The notes below the pieces were generated by a model. The model saw only the letters and a list, made by a program, of their open reading frames with translations. It was not told where the DNA came from and made no database searches. A program made the position numbers and the translations under genes. This document shows positions 11,113 to 27,274 of a DNA stretch of 29,892 nt, one piece after another. The stretch is from a virus, in UHGV virus genome UHGV-0256341. One strand, given 5' to 3'. Position 1 is the stretch's first letter, and each line of letters opens with the position of its first letter.

Positions 11113-11115
11113 AAT

Positions 11116-11319: not shown

Positions 11320-11846
11320 CAGATAAGCTCCACTGTGCAGTGCGGCGCATCCTGCACCCGGCTGATGGCCCAGCGGGCGTCACGCCACAAATCACCGCTG
11401 GCTTCCGCCAGTTCCTCGCCCCGCTTCACACCGGACGCCGTGGCGTCATAGTCCTGGTATCGTTCGTTGAGCATGGCGCGTGCCCAGCAGTAAACCGCGT
11501 TGAAATAGTGCTGAATGCGCTCACTTTTGCCGTCCAGCTGTTCCGCCGGAACCTCTGCCAGCGAGGCATACCCCAGCATCTGCTGGCGTCTGCGAAACTC
11601 ATACAGCTCTGCGTTGACCTCCGAAATTGCCGACAGCGCAACCTGCTTTAAACGCGGCTGCGTCACCGTGCCGTCAGTGCGCATCACGCTGCGAAACTCC
11701 GACAGGTCCACATCAGGCCAGAACGGCGTATTCCTGATGATTTCCGCCTGTTCCGGTGCCTGTTCTGGCGCAACAAACTTCATGCTGCTTTCTCCTGAAA
11801 TAGAGGGCGGTGGACGGGGTTTTGATGTGGCAGTGCCTTTCGCCAC
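11319..11846 (-). CDS. L: Head completion/stabilisation protein, P2 gpL-like
   Basis: 175 aa between M and X. Confidence 0.8.
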   Translation of the reverse strand: MAKGTATSKPRPPPSISGESSMKFVAPEQAPEQAEIIRNTPFWPDVDLSEFRSVMRTDGTVTQPRLKQVALSAISEVNAELYEFRRRQQMLGYASLAEVPAEQLDGKSERIQHYFNAVYCWARAMLNERYQDYDATASGVKRGEELAEASGDLWRDARWAISRVQDAPHCTVELI

Positions 11847-11878
11847 CCCGTGCCGCCCGTGCGCGGGGGCACGTTCTG

Positions 11879-12529
11879 TCAGCGGCTGTCATTGCGCAGT
11901 CTGCGCTCCAGCTGCTGTTTGTCTTTTTTCACGCCACAGCGGGGATCGAGCTGTAACGCATGGTTGAGATGATTAAGGGCGGAAGCCGGGTTGCTTTCAC
12001 TCAGGACAGCGCCAATCGCTTTATGCAGACGCGCCCGTGACTGGTCCGGCATATCCAGACCGTCTGTCAGCTCCAGCGTCTGCAGCAACAGATCGGCATC
12101 AAAGCCGGTGGCGGCAAGCATTGCGCTCTGCGCCGCGTCTGCCATTTCCTCTGCCAGCACGGTCTGCACGTTGCGGTTACCCAGCGGCATCACCCAGCCA
12201 TGACGCAGGGCATGACGCCCGATCTCCAGCGCCCCGGCATAATCTCCGGCATCAATGCGCCACAGCATCACGTACATCAGCACGTCATCCTGTTGAGCGC
12301 CTCCGGCAGCCAGGACGCCCTCCGCCCAGGCGGCATATTTCGGCAGCAGCTCCACCTTGATTTCCGCTTTTTTCACCGTGGACTGAACGCCCTTGAGACG
12401 GCGGCGGTCTTCCGCCAGTTGCAGCAGCATCAGGTCATAGCCCGACGCGTGGCGAACGCTGCCGCCCTCGCGGGCGGCCTGTTCAGCCTGAACGCGCAGG
12501 CGATGCTGCCGTGCGGGACTCAGGCTCAT
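11879..12529 (-). CDS. M: Terminase endonuclease (small) subunit, P2 gpM-like
   Basis: 216 aa downstream of the capsid gene. Confidence 0.8.
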   Translation of the reverse strand: MSLSPARQHRLRVQAEQAAREGGSVRHASGYDLMLLQLAEDRRRLKGVQSTVKKAEIKVELLPKYAAWAEGVLAAGGAQQDDVLMYVMLWRIDAGDYAGALEIGRHALRHGWVMPLGNRNVQTVLAEEMADAAQSAMLAATGFDADLLLQTLELTDGLDMPDQSRARLHKAIGAVLSESNPASALNHLNHALQLDPRCGVKKDKQQLERRLRNDSR

Positions 12530-12532
12530 GGG

Positions 12533-13591
12533 TTACGCTCCGGCTTCTGCTGCAGCGGCGCTGAAATCGCCAATCTGGATGTTTTCCACCAGTGCGGCGC
12601 AGCGGTAGTCCTCAACCACATAGGCTTCGTTAACGGATTCAAAATTTTCAATCCGGTCACGTTTCGGGTTGTCGATAACTGAACGGCGGCGGGTGTCTTC
12701 CTGCCAGTAGATGGACAGGTTATCCAGACGGGTGATCAGCAGCGCATTCGGCGGGAAGAACGGCGCACGCACGGCCTGCAGGCCACCCATGCGTTTCTGA
12801 CTGATGATCATATCGGCAGCCAGTTTTTCACTGTTTTCCTGCTCTTTGTTGACCAGCGGGAAATACTTGTCTGACAGCAGTTCACGACCGCAAATCACCA
12901 CCAGATCGTCATCGTCCTGGTAGACCACATCGATAAGCTCATTGACGGCATCCATCACTACGGCGTCCAGGTTGGCATATTCGCCACCTTTCCCGACTTT
13001 CACCGCGCCCGGAGTGGTTTCACCGCCCGTGGTGGTGCTGCCCATGACGTGATCCGGTGCATCCTCACGGATTTTCTGCAGCCAGCCTTTGTTTACATCC
13101 TGCAGCAGCGGGTTTTCACTACGGTTGGAGGTTTTCGCACGCTTCACGCCGTTAAAGCCGATCATGATGCGGTCCAGTGCCTGACGTTTCACGATGGCGT
13201 CACGGATGCGCACCTGGAAATCCTGAAACTTCGCCCACAGGTCCAGCTTCGCGTAGGTCAGCACCGTGTCAAAGTTGGTCTGCTCGCATTTATATTCCAC
13301 ATCAACCATCAGCGTCGGATCGACAGGCTCACGCTCTTTCGCGGTGGTGTCAGTGGTTCCGGCAATGGTGCTGCCAACACCCAGCCCCAGCAACTGACCA
13401 GACTGCTCAGTCACTGGCGTGACGTTAATCAGCGTCAGGAAAGCGGCGGACTGCTGGATCTGGTCTTCCAGCGTCTGCTGTACAGACGGCTCTACAGTGA
13501 ACTTGCTGGACAGTTCTTCAACTGCCACACCGTTCAGACGCGCCAGCTGCTGCAGGTAAGCGTTAAAAGCAAAGCGGGTATTCTTCTTCAT
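12533..13591 (-). CDS. N: Major capsid protein, P2 gpN-like
   Basis: 352 aa in the O-N-M order. Confidence 0.9.
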   Translation of the reverse strand: MKKNTRFAFNAYLQQLARLNGVAVEELSSKFTVEPSVQQTLEDQIQQSAAFLTLINVTPVTEQSGQLLGLGVGSTIAGTTDTTAKEREPVDPTLMVDVEYKCEQTNFDTVLTYAKLDLWAKFQDFQVRIRDAIVKRQALDRIMIGFNGVKRAKTSNRSENPLLQDVNKGWLQKIREDAPDHVMGSTTTGGETTPGAVKVGKGGEYANLDAVVMDAVNELIDVVYQDDDDLVVICGRELLSDKYFPLVNKEQENSEKLAADMIISQKRMGGLQAVRAPFFPPNALLITRLDNLSIYWQEDTRRRSVIDNPKRDRIENFESVNEAYVVEDYRCAALVENIQIGDFSAAAAEAGA

Positions 13592-13607
13592 CGGGTTTTG
13601 TGCTCCA

Positions 13608-14441
13608 TCAGCAATTGGTCAGAGTGTCAGCGGGGGCGTTACCGCCTGTTGCACGCTGGCGGTAGTCCTGGCGGCTGTCTTCATGACTCAGCTTATTCAC
13701 CAGTTCATTAAAGGCGGTTTGCTGCTTCTGCAGAGCAGACTCCAGTTCAGACAGGCGTTCTTCCTGCTCAGACAGAGATTTTTCGGTTCGCGCGCTCAGG
13801 TTTTGCTGCTCAGTGGCGACCAGCTCCACGGCCTTATGCACATCAGAGAACCGGGCGTCATCGGACTGCTCTTTTTTGGTGAACAGCGCCGTGACGCGGG
13901 AAAACAGGGACGGTTTGTCGTCCTGGACTTCCTCCAGTTCGATCACCGTTTCCTCTGCAGCGGTAAAGAGATTGGCAGGATTCTGCTTGCGGTTTGCCAG
14001 CGGGTTATGGGCTGCACTGGCGCTGAATGTCAGCATTTCAGTGCCCAGACTGGCAGGGTCATCAGTGGCAGCCAGGCCGACCAGGTAGGCTTTGCCCGTA
14101 TCAGCGAACTTCGGGCTGACTTCCATAGAGGTGAATAATTTCTGGCCTTTTTTCACCAGTTCCACCAGGGACTCCGTTGGCTCAACGTCGGCATACAGCG
14201 CCATCTTGCCTGCCAGCGGACCTTCCGTGATTTCCTCAGCAAACAGCGCCGTCACCTTGCCGTAGCGGTTAAAGGTGCTGTCCGGCAGATAAGACTTGAT
14301 GTGCTCAAGGTTAATCAGCGCGGTATACACCGCCGGGTTGTAGCTGGCTGCCATCTGTTCCAGCCATTCACGCTGGATTTCGCGTCCGTCGGTGGTGGCA
14401 CCTTCCACCCCGATGCGAAAACGCTTTGCTTTCACTGTCAT
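13608..14441 (-). CDS. O: Capsid scaffolding protein, P2 gpO-like
   Basis: 277 aa with an acidic coiled-coil-like C-terminal region, divergent from P. Confidence 0.85.
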   Translation of the reverse strand: MTVKAKRFRIGVEGATTDGREIQREWLEQMAASYNPAVYTALINLEHIKSYLPDSTFNRYGKVTALFAEEITEGPLAGKMALYADVEPTESLVELVKKGQKLFTSMEVSPKFADTGKAYLVGLAATDDPASLGTEMLTFSASAAHNPLANRKQNPANLFTAAEETVIELEEVQDDKPSLFSRVTALFTKKEQSDDARFSDVHKAVELVATEQQNLSARTEKSLSEQEERLSELESALQKQQTAFNELVNKLSHEDSRQDYRQRATGGNAPADTLTNC

Positions 14442-14519
14442 GAGCCGTGCTCCGTTAAAAAAAACTTACTGGAGCCTTATGGTTGCGGTGATGGGGGTAG
14501 TGAAACAATGCGCGGTATT

Positions 14520-14537
14520 TGTACCGACAACCACACA
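14520..14537. promoter_or_regulatory. Putative Ogr-dependent late promoter element (TGT-N12-ACA) in the divergent O/P intergenic region
   Basis: TGTACCGACAACCACACA between the divergent O and P starts. Confidence 0.35.
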
Positions 14538-14583
14538 AACCGCAGGCGGGGAAAGCCTTCATTCAAGGCTGTAGGTTTGTGCC

Positions 14584-16350
14584 ATGAACACCACACTGAC
14601 ACCCGCAGATCTCGATCCCCGTCGGCAGGCCATGCTGCTGTACTTTCAGGGATACCGCGTAGCCCGCATTGCTGAAATGCTGGGCGAGAAAGTTGCAACC
14701 GTTCACAGCTGGAAAAAACGCGACAAGTGGGGTGACTATGGGCCGCTGGATCAGATGCAGCTCACCACCGCCGCACGCTACTGCCAGCTCATTATGAAGG
14801 AGCACAAAGAAGGGAAAGATTTCAAAGAGATTGACCTGCTGGCGCGCCAGTCGGAGCGCCATGCGCGGATCGGCAAGTTTAACAATGGCGGCAACGAAGC
14901 CGACTTAAACCCTAACGTCGCCAACCGCAACAAAGGCCCGCGTCGTCAGCCGGAAAAGAACGTTTTCACCGATGAACAGATTGAGAAGCTGGAAGAAATC
15001 TTCCATTCCTCCATGTTCAACTACCAGCGCCACTGGTGGGAAGCCGGAAAAACCAACCGCATCCGCAACCTGCTGAAGTCACGCCAGATCGGCGCGACCT
15101 TCTATTTTGCCCGTGAAGCCCTGATTGACGCCCTGCTAACCGGGCGTAACCAGATTTTCCTTTCCGCCAGCAAGGCACAGGCCCACGTCTTTAAGCAGTA
15201 CATCATCGACTTCGCCAAAGAAGTGGAGGTGGAGCTGAAAGGCGATCCGATAGTGCTTCCTAACGGGGCCACGCTGTACTTCCTCGGCACCAATGCCCGC
15301 ACGGCCCAGAGTTACCACGGCAACCTGTATCTGGATGAATATTTCTGGATACCGAAATTCCAGGAGCTGCGCAAAGTGGCTTCCGGTATGGCTATTCACA
15401 AAAAATGGCGACAAACCTATTTTTCCACGCCATCCAGCCTGACACACAGTGCTTATCCGTTCTGGTCCGGTGCGCTGTTCAACCGTGGGCGCAACAAAGC
15501 CGACAAGGTGGACATCGACCTGTCCCACAGCAATCTGGCCCCCGGCCTGCTGTGCACAGACGGGCAATACCGCCAGATAGTCACCGTGGAAGATGCGGTG
15601 CGCGGCGGCTGTAACCTGTTCGACCTCGACCAGCTACGCATGGAGTACAGCCCGGACGAATACCAGAACCTGCTGATGTGCGAGTTCGTGGACGATCTCG
15701 CGTCCGTGTTCCCGCTCAGCGAGCTGCAAGCGTGCATGGTGGACAGTTGGGAAGTCTGGACCGACTTTCATGCACTGGCCCTGCGCCCGTTTGGCTGGCG
15801 CGAAGTGTGGATCGGTTATGACCCGGCAAAAGGTACGCAGAACGGCGACAGTGCCGGATGCGTGGTGGTGGCACCGCCAGCCGTGCCGGGTGGTAAGTTC
15901 CGCATTCTTGAGCGTCACCAGTGGCGCGGGATGGACTTCCGCGCCCAGGCTGACGCCATCAAAAAACTGACCGAGCAGTACAACGTGACCTACATCGGCA
16001 TCGACTCGACAGGTGTCGGCCACGGGGTTTACGAGAACGTGAAAGCGTTTTTTCCAGCCGTCCGGGAGTTTGTCTACAACCCCAACGTTAAAAACGCCCT
16101 GGTACTCAAGGCCTACGACATTATCAGTCACCGTCGTCTGGAGTTTGACGCCGGACACACCGACATAGCGCAGTCATTTATGGCAATCCGTCGCGCCACC
16201 ACCGCCAGCGGCAACCGCCCAACCTATGAAGCCAGCCGCAGCGAAGAAGCCAGCCATGCCGATCTGGCCTGGGCAACAATGCACGCACTGTTTAACGAAC
16301 CGCTGCAGGGCGAGTCCGCCAATACCAGCAATATTGTGGAGATTTTTTGA
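14584..16350 (+). CDS. P: Terminase large (ATPase) subunit, P2 gpP-like
   Basis: 588 aa, divergent from O and followed by the portal gene. Confidence 0.9.
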   Translation: MNTTLTPADLDPRRQAMLLYFQGYRVARIAEMLGEKVATVHSWKKRDKWGDYGPLDQMQLTTAARYCQLIMKEHKEGKDFKEIDLLARQSERHARIGKFNNGGNEADLNPNVANRNKGPRRQPEKNVFTDEQIEKLEEIFHSSMFNYQRHWWEAGKTNRIRNLLKSRQIGATFYFAREALIDALLTGRNQIFLSASKAQAHVFKQYIIDFAKEVEVELKGDPIVLPNGATLYFLGTNARTAQSYHGNLYLDEYFWIPKFQELRKVASGMAIHKKWRQTYFSTPSSLTHSAYPFWSGALFNRGRNKADKVDIDLSHSNLAPGLLCTDGQYRQIVTVEDAVRGGCNLFDLDQLRMEYSPDEYQNLLMCEFVDDLASVFPLSELQACMVDSWEVWTDFHALALRPFGWREVWIGYDPAKGTQNGDSAGCVVVAPPAVPGGKFRILERHQWRGMDFRAQADAIKKLTEQYNVTYIGIDSTGVGHGVYENVKAFFPAVREFVYNPNVKNALVLKAYDIISHRRLEFDAGHTDIAQSFMAIRRATTASGNRPTYEASRSEEASHADLAWATMHALFNEPLQGESANTSNIVEIF

Positions 16351-17375
16351 TGGGAAAGAGTAAGAAAAACCGCGCTGCGGCGACGAACCAGATCCAGCAT
16401 AAAAACCAAACTTCAGCCGAAGCATTCAGCTTCGGTGATCCCGTTCCTGTTCTGGACCGCCGCGAATTACTGGACTATGTGGAATGCGTAAAGATGGACC
16501 GCTGGTATGAGCCACCCGTAAGTTTTGACGGACTGGCGCGAACATTCCGCGCCGCCGTACACCACAGTTCACCGATTGCAGTAAAGTGCAACATTCTGAC
16601 CAGCACCTACATCCCTCACCCGCTGCTCAGCCAGCAGGCGTTTTCACGTTTTGTGCAGGACTATCTGGTTTTTGGTAACGCCTACCTGGAGAAACGCACG
16701 AACCGATTCGGTGAAGTTATCGCCCTTGAGCCTGCGCTGGCAAAATACACCCGACGCGGATTAGACCTAGATACCTACTGGTTTGTGCAATACGGCATGA
16801 CCACGCAGCCGTATCAGTTCACGAAAGGCAGCATTTTTCATCTGATGGAACCGGACATCAACCAGGAGATCTACGGCCTGCCCGGCTATCTTTCTGCCAT
16901 CCCATCCGCCCTGCTCAACGAGTCCGCCACGCTGTTCCGCCGAAAGTATTACATTAACGGTAGTCATGCAGGCTTCATCATGTACATGACCGATGCCGCG
17001 CAGAACCAGGAAGATGTGAACAACCTCCGCAATGCGATGAAAAGTGCCAAAGGCCCTGGCAACTTCCGCAACCTGTTTATGTACTCGCCTAATGGTAAAA
17101 AAGACGGACTTCAGATTATCCCGTTGTCAGAAGTCGCAGCGAAGGATGAGTTTCTGAATATCAAGAACGTGAGCCGTGATGACATGATGGCGGCACACCG
17201 CGTGCCGCCGCAAATGATGGGAATTATGCCTAATAATGTCGGGGGGTTTGGGGATGTGGAGAAGGCTAGCAAGGTATTCGTAAGAAACGAATTGATGCCC
17301 CTGCAGAAACGATTGCAGGAACTAAATAACTGGTTGGACGAAGAAGTGCTCAATTTTTCAACCTATGAGCTTTAG
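16347..17375 (+). CDS. Q: Portal protein, P2 gpQ-like
   Basis: 342 aa; its start overlaps the P stop. Confidence 0.9.
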   Translation: MMGKSKKNRAAATNQIQHKNQTSAEAFSFGDPVPVLDRRELLDYVECVKMDRWYEPPVSFDGLARTFRAAVHHSSPIAVKCNILTSTYIPHPLLSQQAFSRFVQDYLVFGNAYLEKRTNRFGEVIALEPALAKYTRRGLDLDTYWFVQYGMTTQPYQFTKGSIFHLMEPDINQEIYGLPGYLSAIPSALLNESATLFRRKYYINGSHAGFIMYMTDAAQNQEDVNNLRNAMKSAKGPGNFRNLFMYSPNGKKDGLQIIPLSEVAAKDEFLNIKNVSRDDMMAAHRVPPQMMGIMPNNVGGFGDVEKASKVFVRNELMPLQKRLQELNNWLDEEVLNFSTYEL

Positions 17376-17384
17376 TTTTAAAAC

Positions 17385-17402
17385 GAAGACCATTAGGTCT
17401 TC
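17385..17402. terminator. Hairpin between convergent Q and retron RT (possible bidirectional terminator)
   Basis: GAAGACC-ATTA-GGTCTTC stem-loop with T-rich flank; the RT stop codon lies inside the stem. Confidence 0.45.
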
Positions 17403-18355
17403 GCTTTATTTAAAGGGTTCTTTCCATATTTTTTTTCTAATTTGCTAATATAAGTTATTAATCTTCTATGGCTTTTTGAATCCACACTTAAAATAAATGA
17501 CAACCATCCCCTAACGTGTTCTATCTCAGAAGACTTACCGCAAAATATATGATGTATCTTTGCTCTAATTTCTTTATATTTTTCTCTACCTATCCCAACT
17601 TTCTCTTGTGAAATAACTAAACCTGTAACTTTCCTCTGACTACGAGGCCCACTAATACAAGTTTTTTTTGAGTTAATAACCAATCCTTCACTTGGGATTA
17701 TAGAAAATAAAAAATCACGTGCTTTAACAACCTTTTTCATAGACTGTGCAGATAAGGTGAGATCATCGGCATATCTCGTATATATCAAGCCCCGACTACC
17801 TGCATAACCCTGAATACGATAATCAAGTTTAGAACATATTAGATTAGCTAATTTAGGTGATGATGGAGCACCTTGTGGTAGCAGATTTTTATAACAACAT
17901 ATTTTTGTCAAAACTGAAGATATTAGTCGATTATAACCAAGAGAATGGAACACTCCAAAAACTTTGTTAGCAGTTAAACTTGGGAAAAAATCCTCCAAAT
18001 CAATATTCAGTATAAAGTTTGCCCCAATATGCGGGGTAGCATTATTCAAAATAGATTGGTGCTTTTCAAATCCAATAGAAAAAGGAGATGACGACAGTTT
18101 ATCTAAAATGTTACGTAGAACCCATCCTTGTAAGGCTTTAAGTTCTCGAGAAGGTTGGTAAATGGTTCTCATTCTCTTCTCTGGGCCTTTCTTTTCTACA
18201 GTGTAGATCCTATAGCGAAAATCAGCTGTATAGATTAACAACCGAAGTGTTTCAACAGATATGCGAGTCGCCTTAGACATGTCATGCAAATTGTTCATGA
18301 CAGGTAGGCCGAGATTTCTCAATCTAAAAGTGTTCAAATATTCAGCGGATTTCAT
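17393..18355 (-). CDS. ret: Retron-type reverse transcriptase (matches retron Ec86/Eco1 RT from memory)
   Basis: 320 aa with retron hallmarks: NAxxH (NATPH), LEDFFPS, PQGAPSSPKLANL, catalytic YADD and the VTG motif. It lies immediately 3' of an msr-msd element. Confidence 0.95.
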   Translation of the reverse strand: MKSAEYLNTFRLRNLGLPVMNNLHDMSKATRISVETLRLLIYTADFRYRIYTVEKKGPEKRMRTIYQPSRELKALQGWVLRNILDKLSSSPFSIGFEKHQSILNNATPHIGANFILNIDLEDFFPSLTANKVFGVFHSLGYNRLISSVLTKICCYKNLLPQGAPSSPKLANLICSKLDYRIQGYAGSRGLIYTRYADDLTLSAQSMKKVVKARDFLFSIIPSEGLVINSKKTCISGPRSQRKVTGLVISQEKVGIGREKYKEIRAKIHHIFCGKSSEIEHVRGWLSFILSVDSKSHRRLITYISKLEKKYGKNPLNKAKT

Positions 18356-18361
18356 GAAAGT

Positions 18362-18530
18362 TGCGCACCCTTACGTCAGAAAAAACGGGTTTCCTGGTTG
18401 GCTCGGAGAGCATCAGGCGATGCTCTCCGTTCCAACAAGGAAAACAGACAGTAACTCAGATTCAATGCAGGATGCCGAAACAACATCCAGAGGTTGACCT
18501 TAATGATAAACCTCTCGCTAAGGGTGCGCA
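18362..18530 (-). ncRNA. msr-msd: Retron msr-msd non-coding RNA (msDNA template)
   Basis: Perfect 12-bp terminal inverted repeats (TGCGCACCCTTA ... TAAGGGTGCGCA on the minus strand) flank a long internal palindrome (GGAGAGCATC...GATGCTCTCC); the sequence matches the Ec86 ncRNA as I remember it. Confidence 0.9.
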
Positions 18531-19441
18531 TACGGAATCTTATCATAGTTAAATGTTGATTTTCTACGGTTTTCAAAATTCATAATCTCAAGCCGCAATC
18601 GGTCAAGTGTCTTTCTATCAAAGACGCTCCTAACATAGCTAGCCCCCAAAGCAGTGACCTGATAACCATCAGTCATTTGAAGTATTTTTCGTTCATTTAT
18701 TAGACGAGAAACAACGGATCTAACAATAATTTTAGATAAAACATCATCTTGCTTTATCGCTTTAAAAGCTAGTTCACACAGTGTGCGGTAGTTGACACTA
18801 TCCAGTAAATAGATACAAGGCAATAGAAACCGCTCTGCGTATAATATATTTCCAATATCTTTTGATACTTTATTTTCTTTCCTAACCTTCTTAATAGATG
18901 CCATTAATTTTTTATATAATCGTAATTTTCTGGCAACATCAATGGATGAATCACACATTTCTTTTAGTTCATTTGAACTACAACGCAAAACAGATTTTGA
19001 ATTAAACTTACGCAACAGGCGAACAGGACCATAGTTAATAAAGCTACGTTTTGATTTAAATTTTGCATCTTGAATGCAAATCAACTTTCTCCTTAAGTTT
19101 TCATTATTAGAGAACGCACCAAGCTCTGTGAAAGACCCCGGACTTTCAGGAAATAAAATTATTACATCGACAGCTTCAGCCAGAATATTTTCTAAACTTA
19201 AAAGGCTATGCTGCCCTTGACCAGCCAAAAGATCATCAAATAGATCTTCTGGATAAAATATATCAACATCACTGAACTTTGCTAAAAATTGTGATAATTG
19301 ATGACGCCAAGATTGATGATTAGCAACGTCACCACCACATAGAAAAATGGTTATTTTAATATTAGCTCCTCGATAGAAGCCTTTCTTTGTGAGATGTCCT
19401 ATAAGCTGTTGTTGCTGCTCATCGGTAAATTTTTTATTCAT
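18518..19441 (-). CDS. Retron effector protein (NDT-like / DNA-binding type, as in retron Eco1)
   Basis: 307 aa encoded immediately upstream of msr-msd in the same operon. The N-terminal half has a Rossmann-like glycine-rich pattern consistent with a nucleoside deoxyribosyltransferase-like fold; the C-terminal half is basic. Confidence 0.8.
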   Translation of the reverse strand: MNKKFTDEQQQQLIGHLTKKGFYRGANIKITIFLCGGDVANHQSWRHQLSQFLAKFSDVDIFYPEDLFDDLLAGQGQHSLLSLENILAEAVDVIILFPESPGSFTELGAFSNNENLRRKLICIQDAKFKSKRSFINYGPVRLLRKFNSKSVLRCSSNELKEMCDSSIDVARKLRLYKKLMASIKKVRKENKVSKDIGNILYAERFLLPCIYLLDSVNYRTLCELAFKAIKQDDVLSKIIVRSVVSRLINERKILQMTDGYQVTALGASYVRSVFDRKTLDRLRLEIMNFENRRKSTFNYDKIPYAHP

Positions 19442-19464
19442 AATCTCCCCGCTTTTTTTTCTAC

Positions 19465-19493
19465 TTTATACATCAAGTTATGAATAGATCCAA
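19465..19493 (-). promoter_or_regulatory. Putative sigma70 promoter of the retron operon
   Basis: Minus strand has TTGGAT, a 17-bp spacer, then TATAAA, followed by a GGGGAGA ribosome-binding site before the effector ATG. Confidence 0.3.
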
Positions 19494-19514
19494 TCTCCAT
19501 ACCACATGGCGCGC

Positions 19515-19534
19515 GCTCGTATCCCCGCCACGCC
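19515..19534 (-). other. Putative cos site (cohesive-end core) of the P2-like phage
   Basis: Minus strand reads GGCGTGGCGGGGATACGAGC, similar to the P2/186 cohesive end (GGCGAGGCGGGGAAAGCAC in P2) as I recall it. Position is on the Q side of the genome as in P2. Confidence 0.45.
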
Positions 19535-19578
19535 TGCCCGCTTTGTGTAGTGGTTTTCATGCACCTGCATGACATAAG

Positions 19579-19603
19579 CAAAAGCCCGCCAGCTCTGGCG
19601 GGC
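19579..19603 (-). terminator. Rho-independent terminator downstream of the HNH gene
   Basis: GC-rich perfect inverted repeat GCCCGCCAG/CTGGCGGGC followed on the minus strand by TTTTGCTT. Confidence 0.5.
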
Positions 19604-19716
19604 ATCAGCAAAAACGATCCTCAAACGATCATGCGATTTCATGCGGCATAGACATGCGTTGGCAAAAATGTACGAAATACTCAGCTTATAGGAAATGGTC
19701 TTTTTCCAACCTCCAG

Positions 19717-20436
19717 TTAGCCAAAGCAGAAACCAATATTGCAATTTGAAACTCCACAGTTGTGAAATTGATGTGGACCTACTCTTAGCTTGTGTTCGTC
19801 TCCTACAATCCGAGTCCCCTTAACCAACATATCTAATCTTTCCACAATCAATCTTTCAGGCGCATCAACTTTAATAATTAAACGAGGACCTTTCCTTTTT
19901 TCTATAATAGTTATTCTAGGACCGACAACCTGAACATCCCAATGCCTTGCACTACAAACCCACTCATTCTTAATTAATTCAAGATTAACAATACCTTGAC
20001 TATCGTAAAATTTACCCGAAATAAGAAAAGCATTATTTTCTTTTTCAATGGTTAACAATGGCTCATTTTGAAACATTATTGGTACAGTACAGGATTCAAA
20101 CGTCGCACCACCAAATATTATTGTTGGATGCCTATCAGAAAAGTCCAATATATCGGCCACATTCCCTTTTTGTAAGGCTGCAGGAGATTCCATTGCTTTA
20201 ATTATTTTCTCTTTAGAGTAAAGACGTTTCGTTACTTTCGCATGGCACGTAGGACAAAGTAGTGCTATTGCATTTGGAGAGTGCTCCTTTGCATCAGCGT
20301 ATGTGGGAATTACATGCTCATACTCAACAATGGGAGAAGCACAAACAACGCAACCGAAGCCACAGCGCTGCCTTACCTCCAGTTTTACAGGTTCAGGAAT
20401 TGTTCTAGATAACCCATGCTTGTTAATAGTTGTCAT
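19717..20436 (-). CDS. HNH-endonuclease-domain protein with a C-terminal domain of unknown function
   Basis: 239 aa; N-terminal CGFGCVVC ... EYEHVIP ... NAIALLCPTCH matches the HNH zinc-finger nuclease pattern. AT-rich gene located between cos and replication gene A, where P2 has old/tin. Confidence 0.75.
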   Translation of the reverse strand: MTTINKHGLSRTIPEPVKLEVRQRCGFGCVVCASPIVEYEHVIPTYADAKEHSPNAIALLCPTCHAKVTKRLYSKEKIIKAMESPAALQKGNVADILDFSDRHPTIIFGGATFESCTVPIMFQNEPLLTIEKENNAFLISGKFYDSQGIVNLELIKNEWVCSARHWDVQVVGPRITIIEKRKGPRLIIKVDAPERLIVERLDMLVKGTRIVGDEHKLRVGPHQFHNCGVSNCNIGFCFG

Positions 20437-20558
20437 AACCTTACCTTAAAACTTCGAGAAACCTTTTATATATTGATACTATATCAACTAACGCCTCGCA
20501 CAGCTCGTTGTTCAACCTTGCTGACGCCAGAAGCAAGTTCAGACGCCAGCAACGTTTC

Positions 20559-20793
20559 TTAATGCAGCCAGCTGTCGTCTTCCCACACCTTCTGCATAAT
20601 TTTCATCACTTGCTTCCTTTCTTCGTCCAGTTGCAGTCCGGTCAGTTCCACACCGTTAGAGCTACCTTTGCGGATGCGAATTACCGTTTTTGGATACAGG
20701 GGGCGCAGATTGCGGTAAAGCTCGGATTCAAGGGCGTCCAGGGTAGACTGGCTAATCTTCTGCTCTTTATCGATCATTATTTCAATGCGCATA
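20559..20793 (-). CDS. DinI-like protein
   Basis: Start taken at the internal ATG preceded by a GAGGTG ribosome-binding site. The 78 aa product (MRIEIMIDKEQ ... VWEDDSWLH) resembles DinI in length and in N- and C-terminal motifs. Confidence 0.6.
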
Positions 20794-20802
20794 AAAGTCA
20801 CC

Positions 20803-20991
20803 TCAGCTGATGACATCCATTGAGCGGTTGTATTCGTGGGTTCTGATTTTTGCCATGAGTTCATCTGTCAGTTCAGAAACCCACTGCAAAGCCAGCCCCT
20901 TCTCTTCATCACTACACTCACTAGCCGCTACAAGTTTAAGAAAAAAATCAATGCGCTGGAGCTTCAAAGACTCCAAAAAATAGTCCTGCAT
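20803..20991 (-). CDS. Small hypothetical protein (62 aa)
   Basis: Internal ATG with a strong AGGAGG ribosome-binding site 5 nt upstream; the longer 96 aa ORF start has none. Confidence 0.45.
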   Translation of the reverse strand: MQDYFLESLKLQRIDFFLKLVAASECSDEEKGLALQWVSELTDELMAKIRTHEYNRSMDVIS

Positions 20992-21144
20992 CTTTCCTCC
21001 TATGACACCACAAGCAATACTGTATGTATAACCACTGTTTATATTTACAGTATATAATAATCTTACTGATGTAAAACGTTTTTTTACGTTCATCAGCCTG
21101 ATATGCCTGGTATTATTAAGAGCACGAATTGTTAACCCGCGTAA

Positions 21145-23559
21145 TTAATACAGGTTTCGCCACTTATCATCTTCCTGCAAACGCTGGTTCCGATAGAAGA
21201 TACGCAGGCCTGCTCCTGACGGAATACTGCCGCCGCGAAGGAGTAAATCGACCTCTTTCTCGCTGCCATCAAATCCTCTGGACTTCAGTTCATAGACGAG
21301 CTGCTGTCGCTGATGGTCTGTAATTCGCTGTTTGTAGTCTTTACGCCGTTTCGGTTTCACCAGGCGTAACCTTGCAGCTAGTTCCCGGCGCTCTTTTTTG
21401 CTCATACTGTGCAGGTAATCGTGCAACGCCTTGTCATCCATGCGGGTAATGTCCGTCCTGGTATCCCCATCAGCTGATTTGTCTTTCCCTTGTTGGTTCA
21501 AATTTTCAGCAAGGGGACAGTTATTGCCACGAGTCCAAGGGGCGCAAGCGCCCTGGTCGGCTGCCGCCTCCTGAACGTCAACGGCTTTACGAACCATTTT
21601 CCACTTCACTGCATGAGTGCAGATCTTGCCCTCTGCAATGGGTGACCAGATGCCATAAATACGAATGCCGTGATCGCCATAGGCGGTCGGCTCTTCGTTG
21701 ATTTCATAAGCGGTTCTGATGAGGTGATATTTACGGGGAACCAGTACGCCGCCCTGCTTCATGATGTAGGTGGCAAAACAACCAGCATCAGCAGCAGCCA
21801 GGATGGCATCAAGGCGCGGGTTATCCAGTACCGGCGCACCTGCTTTTTTGTCCCCCTTTTGCCTTACCGCCTGACCAGCCAGCAATCGCAGTTCACGGTA
21901 AGCCTGACGCCCCGGAATGCCAAAGAAGCGGAATTGCTGAACACGATGCAAAGACGCCCAGGCATTCACGTATTCAGCGTTATCACGCAGAGATTTACCC
22001 GTTTCCTTGCTGATCTCGCCAGCCAGACCACGCCCGTCAATGTTCTTACTGATGTATTTCGCTATGTAGCTTGTCGGCGTTCCTTTGCGCGGGTTAATCA
22101 GCTCAGACTTAAAGCGCGGCCCCGTGTTATTGCCCAGCTCCTCGCGGTCTTCACGGATAGCAAACTTACGCAACAATGCTGTAATGGCGCGGCGGTCTTT
22201 TTTGCGCATGAAACACAACAGGTGCCAGTGAACTGTGCCGTCGTGATGCGGCTCAGCCACCCGCACGCCATACCAGCGCAACCCGGCTTTGTGCATCGCC
22301 TTACGAAATGCAGCAAACATACCGACCAGATAATCGCTGCTTTGTCTTACCGTCGCATTTGTCCAGGTCGGATTGGGCCTGCCGTTATTTAGCGTGGAAT
22401 GGAAACGTGACGGACAGGTGATGGTGTAGAAAACGGCGCAGTCACCGCGCATTTCCGCGATAAGCTCCAGACCTTTAACACAGGCCATCATCTCATTGCG
22501 GCGATGCGCAGGGTTGCTGCTGCTGGCGTTTACCACATCCTCCATGTCTAGCGTGTCGCCGTCTTCGTTCACCAGTTCATGAGAACGGAAAAACTCCAGC
22601 GACTTACGGCGCTGCTCACGTTTATGCAACACGGCTTCATAGCTGACATAGGGAGATGCTTTTTTGCTGACAAGGCAGACAGCACGCAACTGCTCTTCCC
22701 GCCATTCGCAACGCATCTTCCATAATTTCCGATACCACCAGTCGGCGCACAACATACGCGCCAGCGAACCCGGAATGAGTTCATAGGGCACGGGTTTACG
22801 GCGGTTTCTTTTCCGACGGAGTTGCTCAAACGCAGGCGGGATGACATCCAGACGCAGGGTTTCCGCTGCCACCCTTTCCCATGTATTGCGGATTTCTTCT
22901 GGCTTAACGTCATCGGTGGCATACAAATCGCCACAAGCGGCATCAAGGCACATACTCATATGCGCAGCTACCAGGGTGGACAGGCGTTTCACCTGATCCT
23001 GACTCATTTCAGGCAGGATCAGCAGGCCGTCCAGCCCTTCATGGCTTGCCATAAAGCGAAAAGATGCAGATAGCTGACTGTCGCGTACATGCTCCAGTCG
23101 TTCCAGACATGGCTTAATCGTCTCACGTAAATAGCGGGAATAAGCCTTTGGCCTGCCCAGGCTGCTGAAGTATTCAATACGTTGCATCAGCGGCTTGCTG
23201 ATATGGGAAGGCTGGGCGTTGACGTCCGCCAGAATGACCATATCCGGATTAAAACGCTGCTGCTCATGCGCCAGCTTTGCCCGACTAATGAGCTTATCCT
23301 GTTCCATTTCGCGCTGGACAGGATCACGGGATTCATTAAAGAAATAACGCTCCCAGACCTGATCACTCAGCGCCTCACGGCGCAGCTGTTCCTGCTCGTT
23401 ATCGGCAGCGTACAGAGTGATCAGGTTTGAAAGCGTAGAAACCGGCGCAACTTCCACCGGGTCCAGATAAGGGTTAATGGCCTTTTTCGGGCTGTTCCAT
23501 GAGAACGATGCGGCAGCTTCGTTAAAGCCGCAGCAGTTGTTCATATCGGCATGACTCAT
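21145..23559 (-). CDS. A: Replication initiation endonuclease, P2 gpA-like (rolling-circle initiator)
   Basis: 804 aa, the largest early gene; start overlaps the stop of the upstream methyltransferase gene. Confidence 0.85.
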
Positions 23560-24413
23560 GCATGTACTCCGTACACGGCAGAACTATCCACGCCACGCGA
23601 ATAATCAAATCCCACCCAGCAGCGCGGCCCGGAAACAGCAATGATTTCTGTTGCTGATTTACCCTCGCCAGCTGCCACACCGATGCTGCGTTTTGCCTTG
23701 ATGTAGTGGTGAGTAAAATTGCGATACAGCGAACGGATCAGGGATGTGTCACTGTTAGAAACAATGACCGGATGTCCTTCTGATGACCGATGTTCAAGAA
23801 CAGATGCCAGGTGATACTGGTCATCTTCAGTGAAGCCGTCAGTGTGATAGCCGGAAAACGTACCGTCATACGGCGGATCGCAATACACCACATCCCCCGC
23901 CTTCAACATCGCCAGCGTTTCATCAAAGCTGGCGCAGATAAACGTTGCTCGCTGGGCCTTTTCTGCAAATGCGCGAATTTCTTTTTCAGGGAAATACGGA
24001 TTTTTATAATTACCGTAGGGAATGTTGAAATGCCCGCTCTTGTTATAGCGACATAAACCACGGTAACCGTGACGATTGAGATACAGGAAATATACCGCTT
24101 TCATGAAATCAGTAATTTCAGTTGAGTAATTAAACTCCTGCCTTATGTTGTAATAAGCCATCTCCCTGTTTGCGATCTCAAATAAAACTCTGGCGCGAGA
24201 TATAAACGATTCACAATCAGCGGCAACCTTTTTATAGAGGTTGATTAAATCAGGATTAATATCCGCAACCAGATAGCTGGGATAATCCGTCTCCATCATC
24301 ACAGCACAGGAACCCGCGAAAGGTTCAACCAGTCGCGGGCCAGCAGGAAGATGTTTTTTTAGTTCGGACATTATGGCAGTTTTATTTCCCGCCCATTTCA
24401 GGATGGTGCTCAT
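23556..24413 (-). CDS. DNA adenine methyltransferase (Dam-like, N6-adenine)
   Basis: Motif I FAGSC and motif IV DPPY are present. Start taken at the internal Met of [11 protein letters not shown], which abuts the TraR-like stop; the longer ORF starts at 24473. Confidence 0.85.
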
Positions 24414-24637
24414 ACAGCACCTCCGTTGTAATGTTTGCCTTTCAGCTCTGCGATTTCCTGACAGGTAATGCAAAGCTGCACACCCGGAATGGCACGGCGG
24501 CGTGCTGGCGTAATTGGCGCTTCACACTCAATGCAAAGCACGCGGGACACGCCCGGCGTTTTGGCACGGGCAGCACGGATATGGCGTTGGCGTTCTTCTT
24601 CAACGCGCTGCTGTACGAGATCCATTGCATCAGCCAT
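24410..24637 (-). CDS. DksA/TraR-family C4 zinc-finger protein
   Basis: 75 aa with CxxC ... CxxC (CIECEAP ... CITCQ) and a coiled N-terminus. Confidence 0.7.
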   Translation of the reverse strand: MADAMDLVQQRVEEERQRHIRAARAKTPGVSRVLCIECEAPITPARRRAIPGVQLCITCQEIAELKGKHYNGGAV

Positions 24638-24876
24638 TAGTGGATCTCCTGCGCTTCGTTCTGGATTGCTTCAGCAGTCACACGAAGCAGTTCTGCCGCT
24701 TCGACGTGGGTTAGCTGGCGGGATGTGATATGACACGCCAGGCTATCAAGGCGAGCTGCCATTGCTTCAGCCCTTGCCCGGCGTTCTTCCAGACGAGCCT
24801 CTGTCAGTAAAATATTAAGCCCTGCGTCATCCGGTCCGGTTTTGGTCGAGAGGGTTTCAATATTACGCATAATCAA
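24637..24876 (-). CDS. Hypothetical early-region protein
   Basis: 79 aa ORF in the early operon, translationally coupled to the next gene. Confidence 0.5.
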   Translation of the reverse strand: MIMRNIETLSTKTGPDDAGLNILLTEARLEERRARAEAMAARLDSLACHITSRQLTHVEAAELLRVTAEAIQNEAQEIH

Positions 24877-24937
24877 TTCTCCTGAATTTAGATAAAGGGA
24901 TGCCCGGCGGGTTTACGCCATTAATTTCATTAGTTGG

Positions 24938-25279
24938 TTAATTCGGCATGGTTAGCCGTCTGGGAAATAAGCTCACCACTGCACGAAAATGATTCATTGC
25001 TTTAATCAACTCCCGCTTTTCGTCAGTGGTCAGCTCATTAATGCTGATGCTATGACGTTCAGCTGGAATTTTTGCCATAAAGAATATAGCAGCCAGTGCC
25101 CGTTTATTTTGTTCGCTATTAATATCCCGTGAATCACGCATATCTTTAATAAACCGCTCAAGCTCTGACTCAATATTCAGGCCAAAAACTTTCGCCCTTA
25201 ACTCCGCAATGTGATTAAGTCCATTCAGGCGTTCACCGGGGCTTAATGGAACAGTCGCCGCAGTGCCTTCAATAGCCAT
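24938..25279 (-). CDS. Hypothetical early-region protein (first gene of the early operon)
   Basis: 113 aa ORF. It does not resemble P2 C or Cox as far as I can recall. Confidence 0.5.
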   Translation of the reverse strand: MAIEGTAATVPLSPGERLNGLNHIAELRAKVFGLNIESELERFIKDMRDSRDINSEQNKRALAAIFFMAKIPAERHSISINELTTDEKRELIKAMNHFRAVVSLFPRRLTMPN

Positions 25280-25476
25280 TTGTTCCCCCGTTTTTTCGTA
25301 GATAGTTCTGCCAGCAATTCATCTTGTGAACGGCACGGATGCCAGCGTTTACCATCCTCCCCCATGATCCAGCCGTGACCCGCTGAATGAATCTGCGCCC
25401 TGAATTCTGGTAAAAAACATTATCGTAAATTACCATTTCTTTCAACAGCTTACTAGTAAACAAGAAGTTAGCCTCC

Positions 25477-27162
25477 GTGAATATAAACGTCGCCGAATTG
25501 TTAAATGGGAATTACATTCTGTTATTATTTGTGGTCCTCGCGCTTGGGCTATGTCTCGGAAAGTTACGACTTGGTTCGATCCAACTGGGTAATTCCATTG
25601 GCGTTTTAGTCGTATCGCTGTTATTAGGCCAACAACATTTCAGCATTAACACCGATGCGCTTAATCTTGGCTTTATGCTGTTTATTTTCTGTGTTGGGGT
25701 TGAAGCCGGACCGAACTTTTTTTCCATTTTTTTTCGCGATGGGAAAAATTACCTAATGTTAGCACTGGTGATGGTTGGCAGTGCGCTGGTGATCGCCTTA
25801 GGGTTAGGTAAGCTGTTTGGCTGGGATATTGGCCTGACGGCCGGTATGTTAGCAGGCTCTATGACGTCGACACCGGTTCTGGTCGGTGCTGGCGATACAC
25901 TGCGTCATTCCGGCATGGAAAGCAGGCAGCTCTCACTGGCACTGGATAATCTGAGCCTCGGGTATGCCTTAACCTATTTAATCGGTCTGGTGAGTTTGAT
26001 TGTTGGTGCGCGTTACTTGCCGAAATTGCAGCATCAGGACTTACAGACCAGCGCCCAGCAAATCGCCCGCGAACGTGGCCTGGACACTGATGCCAACCGT
26101 AAGGTTTATTTACCGGTGATCCGCGCCTATCGCGTCGGCCCGGAGCTGGTGGCCTGGACCGACGGCAAAAATCTGCGTGAACTGGGTATTTATCGACAAA
26201 CCGGCTGCTACATTGAACGTATTCGACGTAACGGGATTCTGGCAAATCCAGACGGTGATGCCGTGCTACAAATGGGCGATGAAATAGCGTTGGTAGGCTA
26301 TCCCGACGCCCATGCCCGACTCGATCCCAGCTTCCGTAACGGTAAAGAAGTTTTCGATCGTGACCTTCTCGACATGCGTATCGTCACTGAAGAAGTGGTC
26401 GTTAAAAACCATAACGCTGTAGGTAAACGTCTCGCACAACTGAAGTTGACCGATCACGGTTGCTTCCTTAACCGCGTCATTCGTAGCCAGATTGAGATGC
26501 CGATAGATGACAACGTCGTGCTTAACAAAGGTGACGTTTTACAAGTCAGCGGTGATGCCCGTCGCGTAAAAACCATCGCCGATCGCATCGGCTTTATCTC
26601 GATTCACAGCCAGGTCACTGACCTGCTGGCATTTTGCGCCTTCTTTGTTATTGGGCTGATGATCGGGATGATCACCTTCCAGTTCAGCACATTCAGTTTC
26701 GGCATGGGGAACGCTGCCGGGTTGTTATTCGCCGGAATTATGCTGGGCTTTATGCGTGCTAACCACCCGACCTTCGGTTACATTCCGCAGGGTGCATTAA
26801 GCATGGTGAAAGAGTTCGGCTTGATGGTGTTTATGGCAGGCGTTGGTCTGAGCGCCGGTAGCGGTATTAATAACGGCCTGGGCGCGATTGGCGGTCAGAT
26901 GTTGATTGCCGGATTGATTGTCAGTCTGGTGCCCGTGGTTATCTGTTTCTTGTTCGGTGCTTATGTATTGCGAATGAACCGCGCGCTGTTGTTCGGCGCA
27001 ATGATGGGCGCACGTACCTGCGCGCCGGCAATGGAGATCATCAGTGATACAGCTCGCAGTAACATCCCGGCGCTGGGCTATGCGGGCACCTATGCAATCG
27101 CCAACGTCCTGCTGACGCTGGCAGGGACAATCATCGTCATGGTATGGCCAGGATTAGGATAA
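25477..27162 (+). CDS. ybjL: Putative transport protein of the AAE (YbjL/YidE) family
   Basis: 561 aa with multiple transmembrane segments flanking a central soluble region; GC content is typical of the host chromosome; the sequence looks like E. coli YbjL from memory. Confidence 0.8.
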
Positions 27163-27274
27163 AACTGAAGTTGCCCTGAAAATGAAATTTTTTTGCACAA
27201 CCGCAGAACTTTTCCGCAGGGCATCAGTCTTAATTAGTGCCACTGCTTTTCTTTGATGTCCCCATTTTGTGGAG

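What the first reader, a model, noticed from the sequence alone, without database searches (positions are those of the whole stretch)
17376..19500. Complete three-gene retron (effector, msr-msd, RT) inserted between portal gene Q and cos
A retron reverse transcriptase (NAxxH, YADD, VTG motifs) is preceded by a 169-nt element with perfect 12-bp terminal inverted repeats and a long internal palindrome. Both match retron Ec86/Eco1 as I remember it. Upstream in the same operon is a 307 aa NDT-like effector. The cassette is AT-rich and fits tightly: the RT stop is 17 bp from the Q stop and lies inside a shared hairpin. Retrons are anti-phage abortive-infection systems, and here it is carried inside the packaged genome of a P2-like phage.
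Basis: partly seen in the sequence, partly recalled or inferred. Interest (0 to 1): 0.85.

Follow-up and report, generated by a model that had tools for sequence, protein, structure and literature searches.

The report
Retron Ec86 in P2-like prophage

Summary
The observation and the interpretation both hold, but the object is already known in full. Window 17393-19441 (minus strand) encodes, in order, a 307-aa NDT-like effector, a 169-nt msr-msd and a 320-aa reverse transcriptase. The two proteins are 100% identical to the solved Ec86 chains (PDB 7V9U, 7V9X, 8QBK). The DNA is 99.7% identical to BL21(DE3)/REL606, and the msr-msd is 169/169 identical. Every anatomical detail checks out:
- the perfect 12-bp a1/a2 repeats and the 25-nt-arm msd palindrome
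- the NATPH, YADD and VTG motifs
- 35.5% GC against 53-55% in the flanks
- the RT stop 17 bp from the Q stop, in the loop of a hairpin
- cos (GGCGTGGCGGGGATACGAG) at 19516-19534

The position was published by Dodd & Egan in 1996 and lies in the gpQ-cos-gpA defence hotspot described by Rousset et al. in 2022. The mechanism is also published. RT-msDNA and effector form filaments, phage Dcm methylates the CCTGG site in the msDNA stem, and the N-glycosidase effector then depletes NAD(P)+/adenine nucleotides, aborting the infection.

The one modest difference is that this copy sits in a more complete prophage than the defective one in E. coli B.

Verdict: correct identification, already known, low interest.

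The parts
17379..17408 (.). Terminator-like hairpin shared by the convergent Q and RT genes. It has 13-nt arms (17379-17391 and 17396-17408). The loop ATTA holds the RT stop codon, and T-runs follow the stem on both strands.
   Evidence: I3; -13.8 kcal/mol on the + strand, -18.7 on the - strand. Related prophages with other cargo carry different hairpins at this spot.
17393..18355 (-). ret: retron Ec86 reverse transcriptase, 320 aa. NATPH is at 18029-18043, YADD at 17762-17773 and VTG at 17621-17629.
   Evidence: 320/320 identical to PDB 7v9u_A. Pfam RVT_1, PADLOC RT_II-A E=7e-128, NCBIfam retron_St85_RT 287.6 bits against a cut-off of 235. Motifs.
18362..18530 (-). msr-msd ncRNA gene, 169 nt. 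a1 is 18519-18530 and a2 is 18362-18373. The priming G is at 18518, inside the UAGC motif.
   Evidence: 169/169 identical to BL21(DE3). Inverted repeat, fold. The priming G 'immediately after the a1 region' and the UAGC motif are described in PMC11754653.
18470..18488 (-). msr stem-loop with an 8-bp stem and a UUU loop (GGAUGUUG-UUU-CGGCAUCC), the RT recognition element.
   Evidence: Predicted in the fold. [quoted passage not shown]
18375..18460 (+). The sequence that becomes the DNA part of msDNA-Ec86. It is 86 nt as originally reported and 85 nt in the cryo-EM structures. Its stem arms are 18390-18414 and 18419-18443.
   Evidence: The length and sequence were read from the window. The start and end are placed from my memory of the published msDNA and from the name Ec86. 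The 85-versus-86 nt note comes from PMC12673091.
18393..18397 (+). CCTGG Dcm site in the msDNA stem, the published sensor site. It is the only CCWGG in the element, and the element has no GATC.
   Evidence: Wang et al. (bioRxiv 10.1101/2023.08.16.553469) report that mutating CCTGG abolishes defence.
18518..19441 (-). Effector, 307 aa: an N-terminal NDT-like N-glycosidase domain plus a C-terminal DNA-binding domain. Its stop codon UAG (18518-18520) overlaps a1, and its G is the priming G.
   Evidence: 307/307 identical to PDB 7v9x_C / 8qbk. PADLOC NDT_II-A E=2.7e-94. NCBIfam STM3845_fam 176.6 bits against a cut-off of 100. Type II-A3 in PMC7736814.
19445..19493 (-). Candidate operon promoter and ribosome-binding site: TTGGAT (19488-19493), 17-nt spacer, TATAAA (19465-19470), then GGGGAG (19445-19450) before the ATG. 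This is inferred only.
   Evidence: Read from the sequence. The consensus scan did not report it because the -35 hexamer matches only 3 of 6.
19509..19657 (.). Conserved cos block of the prophage. The 19-nt cohesive-end sequence GGCGTGGCGGGGATACGAG lies at 19516-19534 on the minus strand.
   Evidence: The block is shared at 90-95% with Fels-2 and other P2-like phages. It aligns to the annotated cos (1-19) of phage 186. It is identical in other E. coli prophages that carry other cargo.
16347..17375 (+). Portal gene (P2 Q / 186 W homologue), the left flank of the cassette.
   Evidence: Pfam Phage_portal. Annotated as 'phage portal protein' in BL21 and 20A24.

Best explanation
Window 17393-19441 (minus strand) is retron Ec86 (Retron-Eco1, type II-A3). 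It is carried as accessory cargo of a P2/186-like prophage, between the portal gene and cos.

**Shown here**
- All three components are intact and identical to the experimentally characterised system.
- The order on the minus strand is effector, msr-msd, RT.
- The flanks are the prophage backbone.

**Taken from the literature on the identical sequence**
- The operon transcript folds through its a1/a2 repeats.
- The RT binds the msr stem-loop with the UUU loop. It primes from the 2'-OH of the G right after a1 and copies the msd into an ~85-86-nt DNA, giving branched msDNA.
- RT-msDNA binds dimers of the effector and holds them inactive in filaments.
- On infection, a phage Dcm methyltransferase methylates the CCTGG site in the msDNA stem.
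- The effector, an N-glycosidase, then hydrolyses NAD(P)+/adenine nucleotides, and the infection aborts.

**Inferred**
- The system benefits the prophage by protecting its lysogen against competing phages.
- If the prophage is inducible, the retron is packaged at the extreme end of the virion DNA, next to cos.
For: - **Identity:** RT and effector are 100% identical to the PDB Ec86 chains. DNA 17300-19600 differs from BL21(DE3) at 8 positions, none in the msr-msd and none that change a protein. The cassette 17409-19508 is 100.0% identical to E. coli 20A24 and occurs in 48 of 5426 complete genomes, mostly B-lineage laboratory strains.
- **Family models:** PADLOC RT_II-A and NDT_II-A. NCBIfam retron RT and effector, both above cut-off.
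- **ncRNA anatomy:** a1/a2, the msd stem, the 8-bp + UUU stem-loop and the UAGC priming motif.
- **Context:** P and Q lie upstream. cos is at 19516-19534. DinI and gpA lie beyond it.
- **Same site in relatives:** some related prophages have a near-empty site of ~150 bp. Others carry PIN, TIR, SEFIR, STAS or P-loop NTPase genes there.
[quoted passage not shown] The gpA-gpQ region is a defence hotspot (PMC9122126).
- **Literature on mechanism:** the Dcm trigger, the filament and adenine-derivative depletion (bioRxiv 10.1101/2023.08.16.553469). NAD(P)+ hydrolysis by the N-glycosidase filament (PMC12673091).
Against: - Nothing in the sequence argues against the identification.
- msDNA production and phage defence were not, and cannot be, measured here for this particular strain.
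- The promoter is only inferred.
- Rfam returns no retron family for the ncRNA. This reflects the library, not the element.
- No isolated phage genome in the phage collection carries the cassette, so packaging of the retron in virions is inferred from its position inside the prophage, not observed.
- The window cannot show whether this prophage is inducible, because its int/CI end is missing.
Confidence: 0.97

Rival explanations
1. The locus is a decayed, non-functional relic of a retron inside a dead prophage, as many prophage cargo genes are.
For: The best-known host copy, in BL21(DE3), sits in a prophage with deletions and pseudogenes: truncated gpA, a fused lysozyme/gpO region and missing capsid genes.
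Against: Both ORFs are full length and 100% identical to the proteins that were purified and shown to be active. The ncRNA is identical to the functional one. The only two coding SNPs against BL21 are silent. The prophage here keeps the genes that BL21 lost: window 10573-13718 and the full 804-aa gpA.
Confidence: 0.02
2. The RT belongs to another class of bacterial reverse transcriptase (group II intron, DGR, DRT/Abi-type), and the flanking palindrome is incidental.
For: Weak hits to the group II intron RT/maturase, Drt2 and Drt3a models do appear.
Against: Those hits are far below their cut-offs (46 against 300, 35 against 390, 36 against 200 bits), whereas the retron model passes (287.6 against 235). 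The retron-specific NAxxH and VTG motifs are present. The best PDB hits are all retron RTs.
Confidence: 0.005
3. The Q-retron-cos adjacency is an assembly artefact, because the window itself contains an unnatural junction.
For: The window has a junction at 25380|25381 that joins the prophage early region to host DNA upstream of ybjL. None of 5426 complete E. coli genomes has this junction.
Against: That junction lies 6 kb from the retron. The continuous stretch P-Q-retron-cos is found as a single aligned piece in 48 complete chromosomes. It is also 99.987% identical over window 10518-25380 in GCA_000350685.1.
Confidence: 0.005

Closest known systems
Retron Ec86 / Retron-Eco1 of E. coli B, BL21(DE3) and REL606 (type II-A3; PDB 7V9U, 7V9X, 7XJG, 8QBK-M, 9JM0)
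   Same: It is the same element. The RT, the effector and the msr-msd are identical. The gene order is the same, and so is the position between the portal gene and cos of a prophage integrated between rcdA and ybjL at rybB.
   Different: There are two silent SNPs in the coding regions (17465, 18944) and six SNPs just beyond cos. The surrounding prophage is more complete than in BL21: capsid, lysis and full gpA genes are present. On the other side of cos it carries a 239-aa HNH gene where BL21 has a 111-aa DUF8087 gene.
Retron Ec67 / Retron-Eco2 (type I-C, RT-Toprim fusion)
   Same: It is reported to occupy the same site, replacing the same ~180 bp between cos and the terminator of the packaging gene in a 186-related prophage (PMC6868368).
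   Different: It is a different retron type with no separate NDT effector. Its RT is only distantly similar (E=4.5e-34 over residues 23-273).
Retron St85/Sen2 and Ec73/Eco3 (type II-A1, NDT-like effectors)
   Same: They have the same kind of effector (an NDT-like domain plus a DNA-binding domain), and NCBI uses the same family names. According to the literature, Ec73 also rides a cos-bearing element, the P4-like satellite phiR73.
   Different: The RT clade differs: clade 1 for St85/Ec73 against clade 9 for Ec86. The ncRNA type also differs (PMC7736814).
Other cargo of the cos-proximal hotspot of P2-like phages (P2 old/tin, 186 orf97, Fels-2 STM2723.1, and PIN, TIR, SEFIR or STAS genes)
   Same: The slot is the same, between portal gene and cos or between cos and gpA. 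The DNA is AT-rich foreign DNA, and the theme is anti-phage or exclusion functions.
   Different: The genes are unrelated. Only the location is shared.

Membership tests
Retron (Retron-Eco1/Ec86, type II-A3) | Retron-clade reverse transcriptase with the catalytic YADD box and the retron-specific NAxxH (region X) and VTG (region Y) motifs | tested here: met
   NATPH at 105-109, YADD at 195-198, VTG at 243-245. PADLOC RT_II-A E=7e-128. NCBIfam retron RT above cut-off. 320/320 identical to the PDB Ec86 RT.
Retron (Retron-Eco1/Ec86, type II-A3) | Adjacent msr-msd ncRNA bounded by inverted repeats a1/a2, with a priming G directly 3' of a1 | tested here: met
   12-nt perfect repeats at 18362-18373 and 18519-18530. 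UAGC with its G at 18518, as described in PMC11754653. The element lies 6 nt upstream of the RT start.
Retron (Retron-Eco1/Ec86, type II-A3) | msd template hairpin, and the msr stem-loop recognised by the cognate RT (8-bp stem, UUU loop) | tested here: met
   25-nt arms, 88% complementary. The fold shows both hairpins (z = -9.0). The 8-bp + UUU stem-loop is at 18470-18488. Published requirement in PMC6868368.
Retron (Retron-Eco1/Ec86, type II-A3) | Effector with an NDT-like domain and a C-terminal DNA-binding domain, encoded upstream of the ncRNA ('Nuc_deoxy+Retron') | tested here: met
   PADLOC NDT_II-A E=2.7e-94. NCBIfam STM3845_fam above cut-off. 307/307 identical to the PDB Ec86 effector. 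Classification in PMC7736814. The local Pfam copy gave no hit.
Retron (Retron-Eco1/Ec86, type II-A3) | Production of branched msDNA with a 2'-5' linkage | not testable with these tools
   Established in the literature and in cryo-EM structures for the identical sequence (PDB entries; PMC12673091). Not measured for this strain.
Retron (Retron-Eco1/Ec86, type II-A3) | Anti-phage (abortive infection) activity that depends on all three parts | not testable with these tools
   Shown for the BL21(DE3) system by Wang et al. (bioRxiv 10.1101/2023.08.16.553469). Inferred here from sequence identity.
Retron (Retron-Eco1/Ec86, type II-A3) | Match to a curated retron ncRNA covariance model | tested here: inconclusive
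   Rfam 15 gave no retron family at the gathering threshold or at E<=10, only chance hits to miRNA hairpins. No model in that library captures this ncRNA, so the absence of a hit says nothing.
Cargo of the cos-proximal variable hotspot of P2/186-like prophages | Located between portal gene gpQ and replication gene gpA, next to cos, inside the prophage | tested here: met
   Q is 16347-17375, the cassette 17376-19508, cos 19516-19534 and gpA 21145-23559. Hotspot defined in PMC9122126.
Cargo of the cos-proximal variable hotspot of P2/186-like prophages | The same slot holds unrelated genes, or is nearly empty, in related prophages, and the cargo differs in composition from the backbone | tested here: met
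   PIN, TIR, SEFIR, STAS and P-loop NTPase genes at the same slot, or a ~150-bp gap. Phage 186 has ~145 bp there. Fels-2 has a 565-aa ORF there. GC is 35.5% against ~54%.

The most novel reading that the evidence does not exclude
This copy of Ec86 sits in an apparently complete, 186-type prophage of a wild E. coli, with a Tum/DinI module that may make it SOS-inducible. In E. coli B the host prophage is crippled. If the prophage here is active, Ec86 is packaged at the very end of the virion DNA next to cos and spread by lysogeny. It would travel with a second, uncharacterised AT-rich HNH gene (19717-20436) on the other side of cos, so that cos is flanked by two cargo genes, the retron a known defence system and the HNH gene a possible exclusion gene. 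This would be a modest natural-history addition, not a new kind of system.
Probability: 0.35. Interest if true: 0.2.

Novelty: already known. Interest (0 to 1): 0.07.

Why it matters
It matters little as a discovery. Ec86 is the first retron described in E. coli (1989). It is the workhorse of retron genome editing. Its structure has been solved several times, its trigger and effector chemistry are published, and its position between cos and the packaging-gene terminator of a 186-related prophage was described in 1996.

The result is useful as a calibration. A reader working from sequence alone recovered the element, its three parts, its boundaries (17376-19500, against my 17376-19508) and its identity correctly.

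It also gives a clean worked example of the P2-like cos-proximal hotspot. The same slot is empty or holds PIN, TIR, SEFIR or STAS genes in sister prophages.

Tried and rejected
- **Rfam, whole window at gathering and 18250-18650 at E<=10:** no retron family, only chance hairpin hits (mir-1684 and others). Rejected as evidence either way.
- **Pfam on the effector:** no family in the local copy. PADLOC and NCBIfam did identify it.
- **Megablast of the cassette against 50,697 phage records:** no match, so no isolated phage genome in that collection carries Ec86.
- **Full-text search for the msDNA sequence string:** no paper found. The msDNA end points therefore rest on my memory of the published msDNA and on the 86-nt name.
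- **Exact P2 and 186 cos 19-mers:** only a 4-mismatch match to the 186 cos. This was resolved by aligning the joined ends of phage 186 and by comparing sister prophages.
- **Whether the terminator hairpin belongs to the phage backbone:** sister prophages have different hairpins after Q, so I could not assign it to backbone or to cargo.
- **Whether the HNH neighbour is the counterpart of Fels-2 STM2726:** no similarity.
- **The 25380|25381 junction:** it is not found in any complete genome. I judged it a property of how the record or window was built, irrelevant to the retron.
- **Terminated calls:** searches failed on input format and gave no data.
Full report
**1. What is there**

On the minus strand of window 17376-19500 lie two ORFs and a structured non-coding element.
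- A 307-aa ORF runs 19441..18518.
- A 169-nt element occupies 18530..18362.
- A 320-aa ORF runs 18355..17393.

The element has perfect 12-nt terminal inverted repeats (18362-18373 and 18519-18530). It also has an internal palindrome with 25-nt arms, 88% complementary (18390-18414 and 18419-18443). As RNA it folds at -80.3 kcal/mol, against -46.0 +/- 3.8 for dinucleotide shuffles (z = -9.0, 0 of 200 as good). The terminal repeats pair, three hairpins form in the 5' half, and the long hairpin forms in the 3' half.

The 320-aa protein carries NATPH (105-109), YADD (195-198) and VTG (243-245).

The Q stop (17373-17375) and the RT stop (17393-17395) are 17 bp apart. The RT stop sits in the ATTA loop of a 13-bp hairpin (17379-17391 and 17396-17408) that is followed by T-runs on both strands.

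**2. What it is**

- The 320-aa protein is identical over all 320 residues to PDB 7v9u_A, 'RNA-directed DNA polymerase from retron EC86' (E = 4.5e-214).
- The 307-aa protein is identical over all 307 residues to 7v9x_C / 8qbk, 'Retron Ec86 putative ribosyltransferase/DNA-binding protein'.
- DNA 17300-19600 is 99.7% identical to BL21(DE3), REL606 and other B-lineage strains. Of the 8 differences, none falls in 18362-18530. Two are silent changes in the ORFs, and six lie beyond cos.
- PADLOC assigns RT_II-A (E = 7e-128) and NDT_II-A (E = 2.7e-94).
- NCBIfam assigns the retron St85-family RT (287.6 bits, cut-off 235) and effector (176.6 bits, cut-off 100).
- Mestre et al. classify Ec86 as type II-A3, 'Nuc_deoxy+Retron'. 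This means an effector with an N-terminal NDT-like and a C-terminal DNA-binding domain placed ahead of the retron (PMC7736814).

The ncRNA shows the published functional landmarks.
- The priming G lies immediately after a1, within UAGC (window 18518). It is also the last base of the effector's UAG stop codon.
- The 8-bp stem with a UUU loop that RT-Eco1 recognises lies at 18470-18488 (PMC6868368).
- The plus-strand stretch 18375-18460 is 86 nt. It is the sequence I recall as the DNA part of msDNA-Ec86. Cryo-EM structures report 85 nt (PMC12673091).

Rfam returned no retron family. Since the element is identical to the experimentally defined one, this reflects the library only.

**3. Context**

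- Upstream, on the plus strand, are the terminase ATPase gene (14584-16350) and the portal gene (16347-17375) of a P2-like phage.
- Downstream lies a block (19509-19657) shared at 90-95% with Fels-2 and many P2-like phages.
- Aligned to the joined ends of phage 186, whose record annotates cos at 1-19, the cohesive-end sequence falls at 19516-19534 (GGCGTGGCGGGGATACGAG on the minus strand). Similarity continues about 15 bp further, to about 19501.
- The same cos sequence is present in other E. coli prophages that carry other cargo.
- Beyond cos come an HNH gene, a DinI/Tum-like gene and the 804-aa gpA replication gene.

- In phage 186 only ~145 bp separate cos from the terminator tW of the portal gene.
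- In E. coli YZ22MPE6 the slot is ~150 bp.
- In other strains it holds PIN, TIR, SEFIR, STAS-like, DUF4145 or P-loop NTPase genes.
- In Fels-2 it holds a 565-aa ORF.

**4. How it works**

The sequence is identical to the studied system, so I adopt the published mechanism and mark it as literature, not as shown here.
- The RT copies the msd into msDNA, primed from the 2'-OH of the G after a1 (PMC6868368, PMC11754653).
- RT-msDNA binds the effector and assembles into filaments in which effector dimers are sandwiched and inactive.
- A phage-encoded Dcm methylates the CCTGG in the msDNA stem. Here this is 18393-18397, the only CCWGG in the element.
- Mutating that site abolishes defence.
- The activated effector depletes adenine derivatives (bioRxiv 10.1101/2023.08.16.553469). 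Other work describes the activity as NAD(P)+ hydrolysis by an N-glycosidase filament (Carabias et al. 2024, as summarised in PMC12673091).

My own inferences are these.
- A candidate promoter, TTGGAT-17-TATAAA (19465-19493), and an RBS, GGGGAG (19445-19450), lie in the 67 bp between cos and the effector ATG.
- The hairpin at 17379-17408 terminates both convergent transcripts.
- If the prophage is active, the retron is packaged next to the genome end.

**5. Comparison with what is known**

This is not merely like Ec86. It is Ec86.

Its location is published. [quoted passage not shown] Rousset et al. (2022) describe the gpA-gpQ, cos-proximal region of P2-like phages as a hotspot of anti-phage systems that includes retrons.

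The cassette occurs in 48 of 5426 complete E. coli genomes, always once and always chromosomal. Nearly all are B-lineage laboratory strains. A few are isolates sampled outside the laboratory (20A24, JNE082640, VG1046-3E9, FDAARGOS_433).

The window is closest to GCA_000350685.1, with 2 mismatches over window 10518-25380, and to 20A24. In these genomes the prophage is far more complete than in BL21, which lacks window 10573-13718 and has a truncated gpA.

**6. An oddity outside the finding**

The window is not collinear with any real chromosome.
- Window 1-25380 is prophage.
- Window 25381-29892 is host DNA (96 bp upstream of ybjL, then ybjL and RybB), followed by the opposite prophage end (ogr, D, U, start of T).
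- In 20A24 that right-hand part precedes the window's left end by ~2.5 kb.
- No complete genome has the 25380|25381 junction.
- The near-identical GCA_000350685.1 continues past 25380 into fil, cII, CI and int.

The simplest reading is a wrapped or rotated provirus record. It does not touch the retron, whose local context is found in one aligned piece in 48 complete chromosomes.

**7. Verdict**

Novelty: already known. Interest is low (0.07).

The only reading with any freshness is that Ec86 here rides an apparently complete, possibly inducible prophage, together with an uncharacterised HNH gene across cos. That is a small natural-history point.

Noticed in passing
window 25380|25381 (and the window ends 1 / 29892): The window is circularly permuted relative to real chromosomes. 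The prophage early region (DUF5347 gene) abuts host DNA 96 bp upstream of ybjL. The right end of the window (ogr, D, U, T) would continue, after ~2.5 kb, into its left end. No junction of this kind exists in 5426 complete E. coli genomes or in the 99.987%-identical GCA_000350685.1. It is probably a wrapped provirus record rather than biology.
   Followed up: yes
window 19717-20436 (-): A 239-aa protein with an N-terminal HNH motif (Pfam HNH E=2.4e-5; full-length match to phrog_6544, function unknown). It lies in AT-rich DNA (38% GC) on the gpA side of cos, the slot where 186 has orf97 ('expression from plasmid blocks 186 infection') and BL21 has a DUF8087 gene. It has no PADLOC or NCBIfam hit and no similarity to Fels-2 STM2726. 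It may be a second exclusion or defence cargo gene.
   Followed up: partly
window 23556-24473 (-): The prophage encodes a Dam-family (MethyltransfD12) DNA methyltransferase just upstream of gpA. The retron's msDNA contains no GATC but one CCTGG, so the prophage's own adenine methylase would not be expected to modify the retron's methylation sensor. The methylase's specificity was not tested.
   Followed up: partly
window 27242-27320 (+): RybB sRNA (Rfam RF00110, 105 bits, full length) lies directly next to the ogr end of the prophage, between ybjL and the phage. This fits the prophage being integrated at rybB, between rcdA and ybjL, as in BL21(DE3).
   Followed up: partly
window 18518-18520 (-): The effector's stop codon UAG overlaps the a1 repeat, and its G is the priming (branching) guanosine of the msr. 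The end of the effector ORF and the start of the ncRNA therefore share sequence.
   Followed up: yes
window 17393-18355 (-); L001 6094-6981: RefSeq/PGAP annotates the RT in BL21(DE3) and 20A24 as 295 aa (WP_226347323.1, a later start). The solved structures and the ORF here are 320 aa. The N-terminal helix missing from the short annotation is described as essential for Eco1 dimerisation (PMC12673091).
   Followed up: partly
window 8262-9068 (+): A 268-aa ORF on the opposite strand lies inside the late tail/lysis operon, between the baseplate V and tail-completion S genes. It is annotated DUF6216 in BL21 and 20A24 and has no PHROG hit. It looks like another inserted cargo gene (moron).
   Followed up: no
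window 2256-4671: A DNA invertase gene (2256-2828, phrog_125) lies next to the tail-fibre / fibre-assembly region. That region is the only large stretch (2903-4671) that does not align collinearly with strain 20A24; parts of it match in inverted orientation. This is consistent with an invertible tail-fibre segment.
   Followed up: no
window 20559-20864 (-): A DinI/Tum-like gene (Pfam DinI E=1.3e-22) sits where phage 186 has tum under a LexA-controlled promoter. This suggests a 186-type, SOS-inducible prophage rather than a non-inducible P2-type one. No LexA box was searched for.
   Followed up: no
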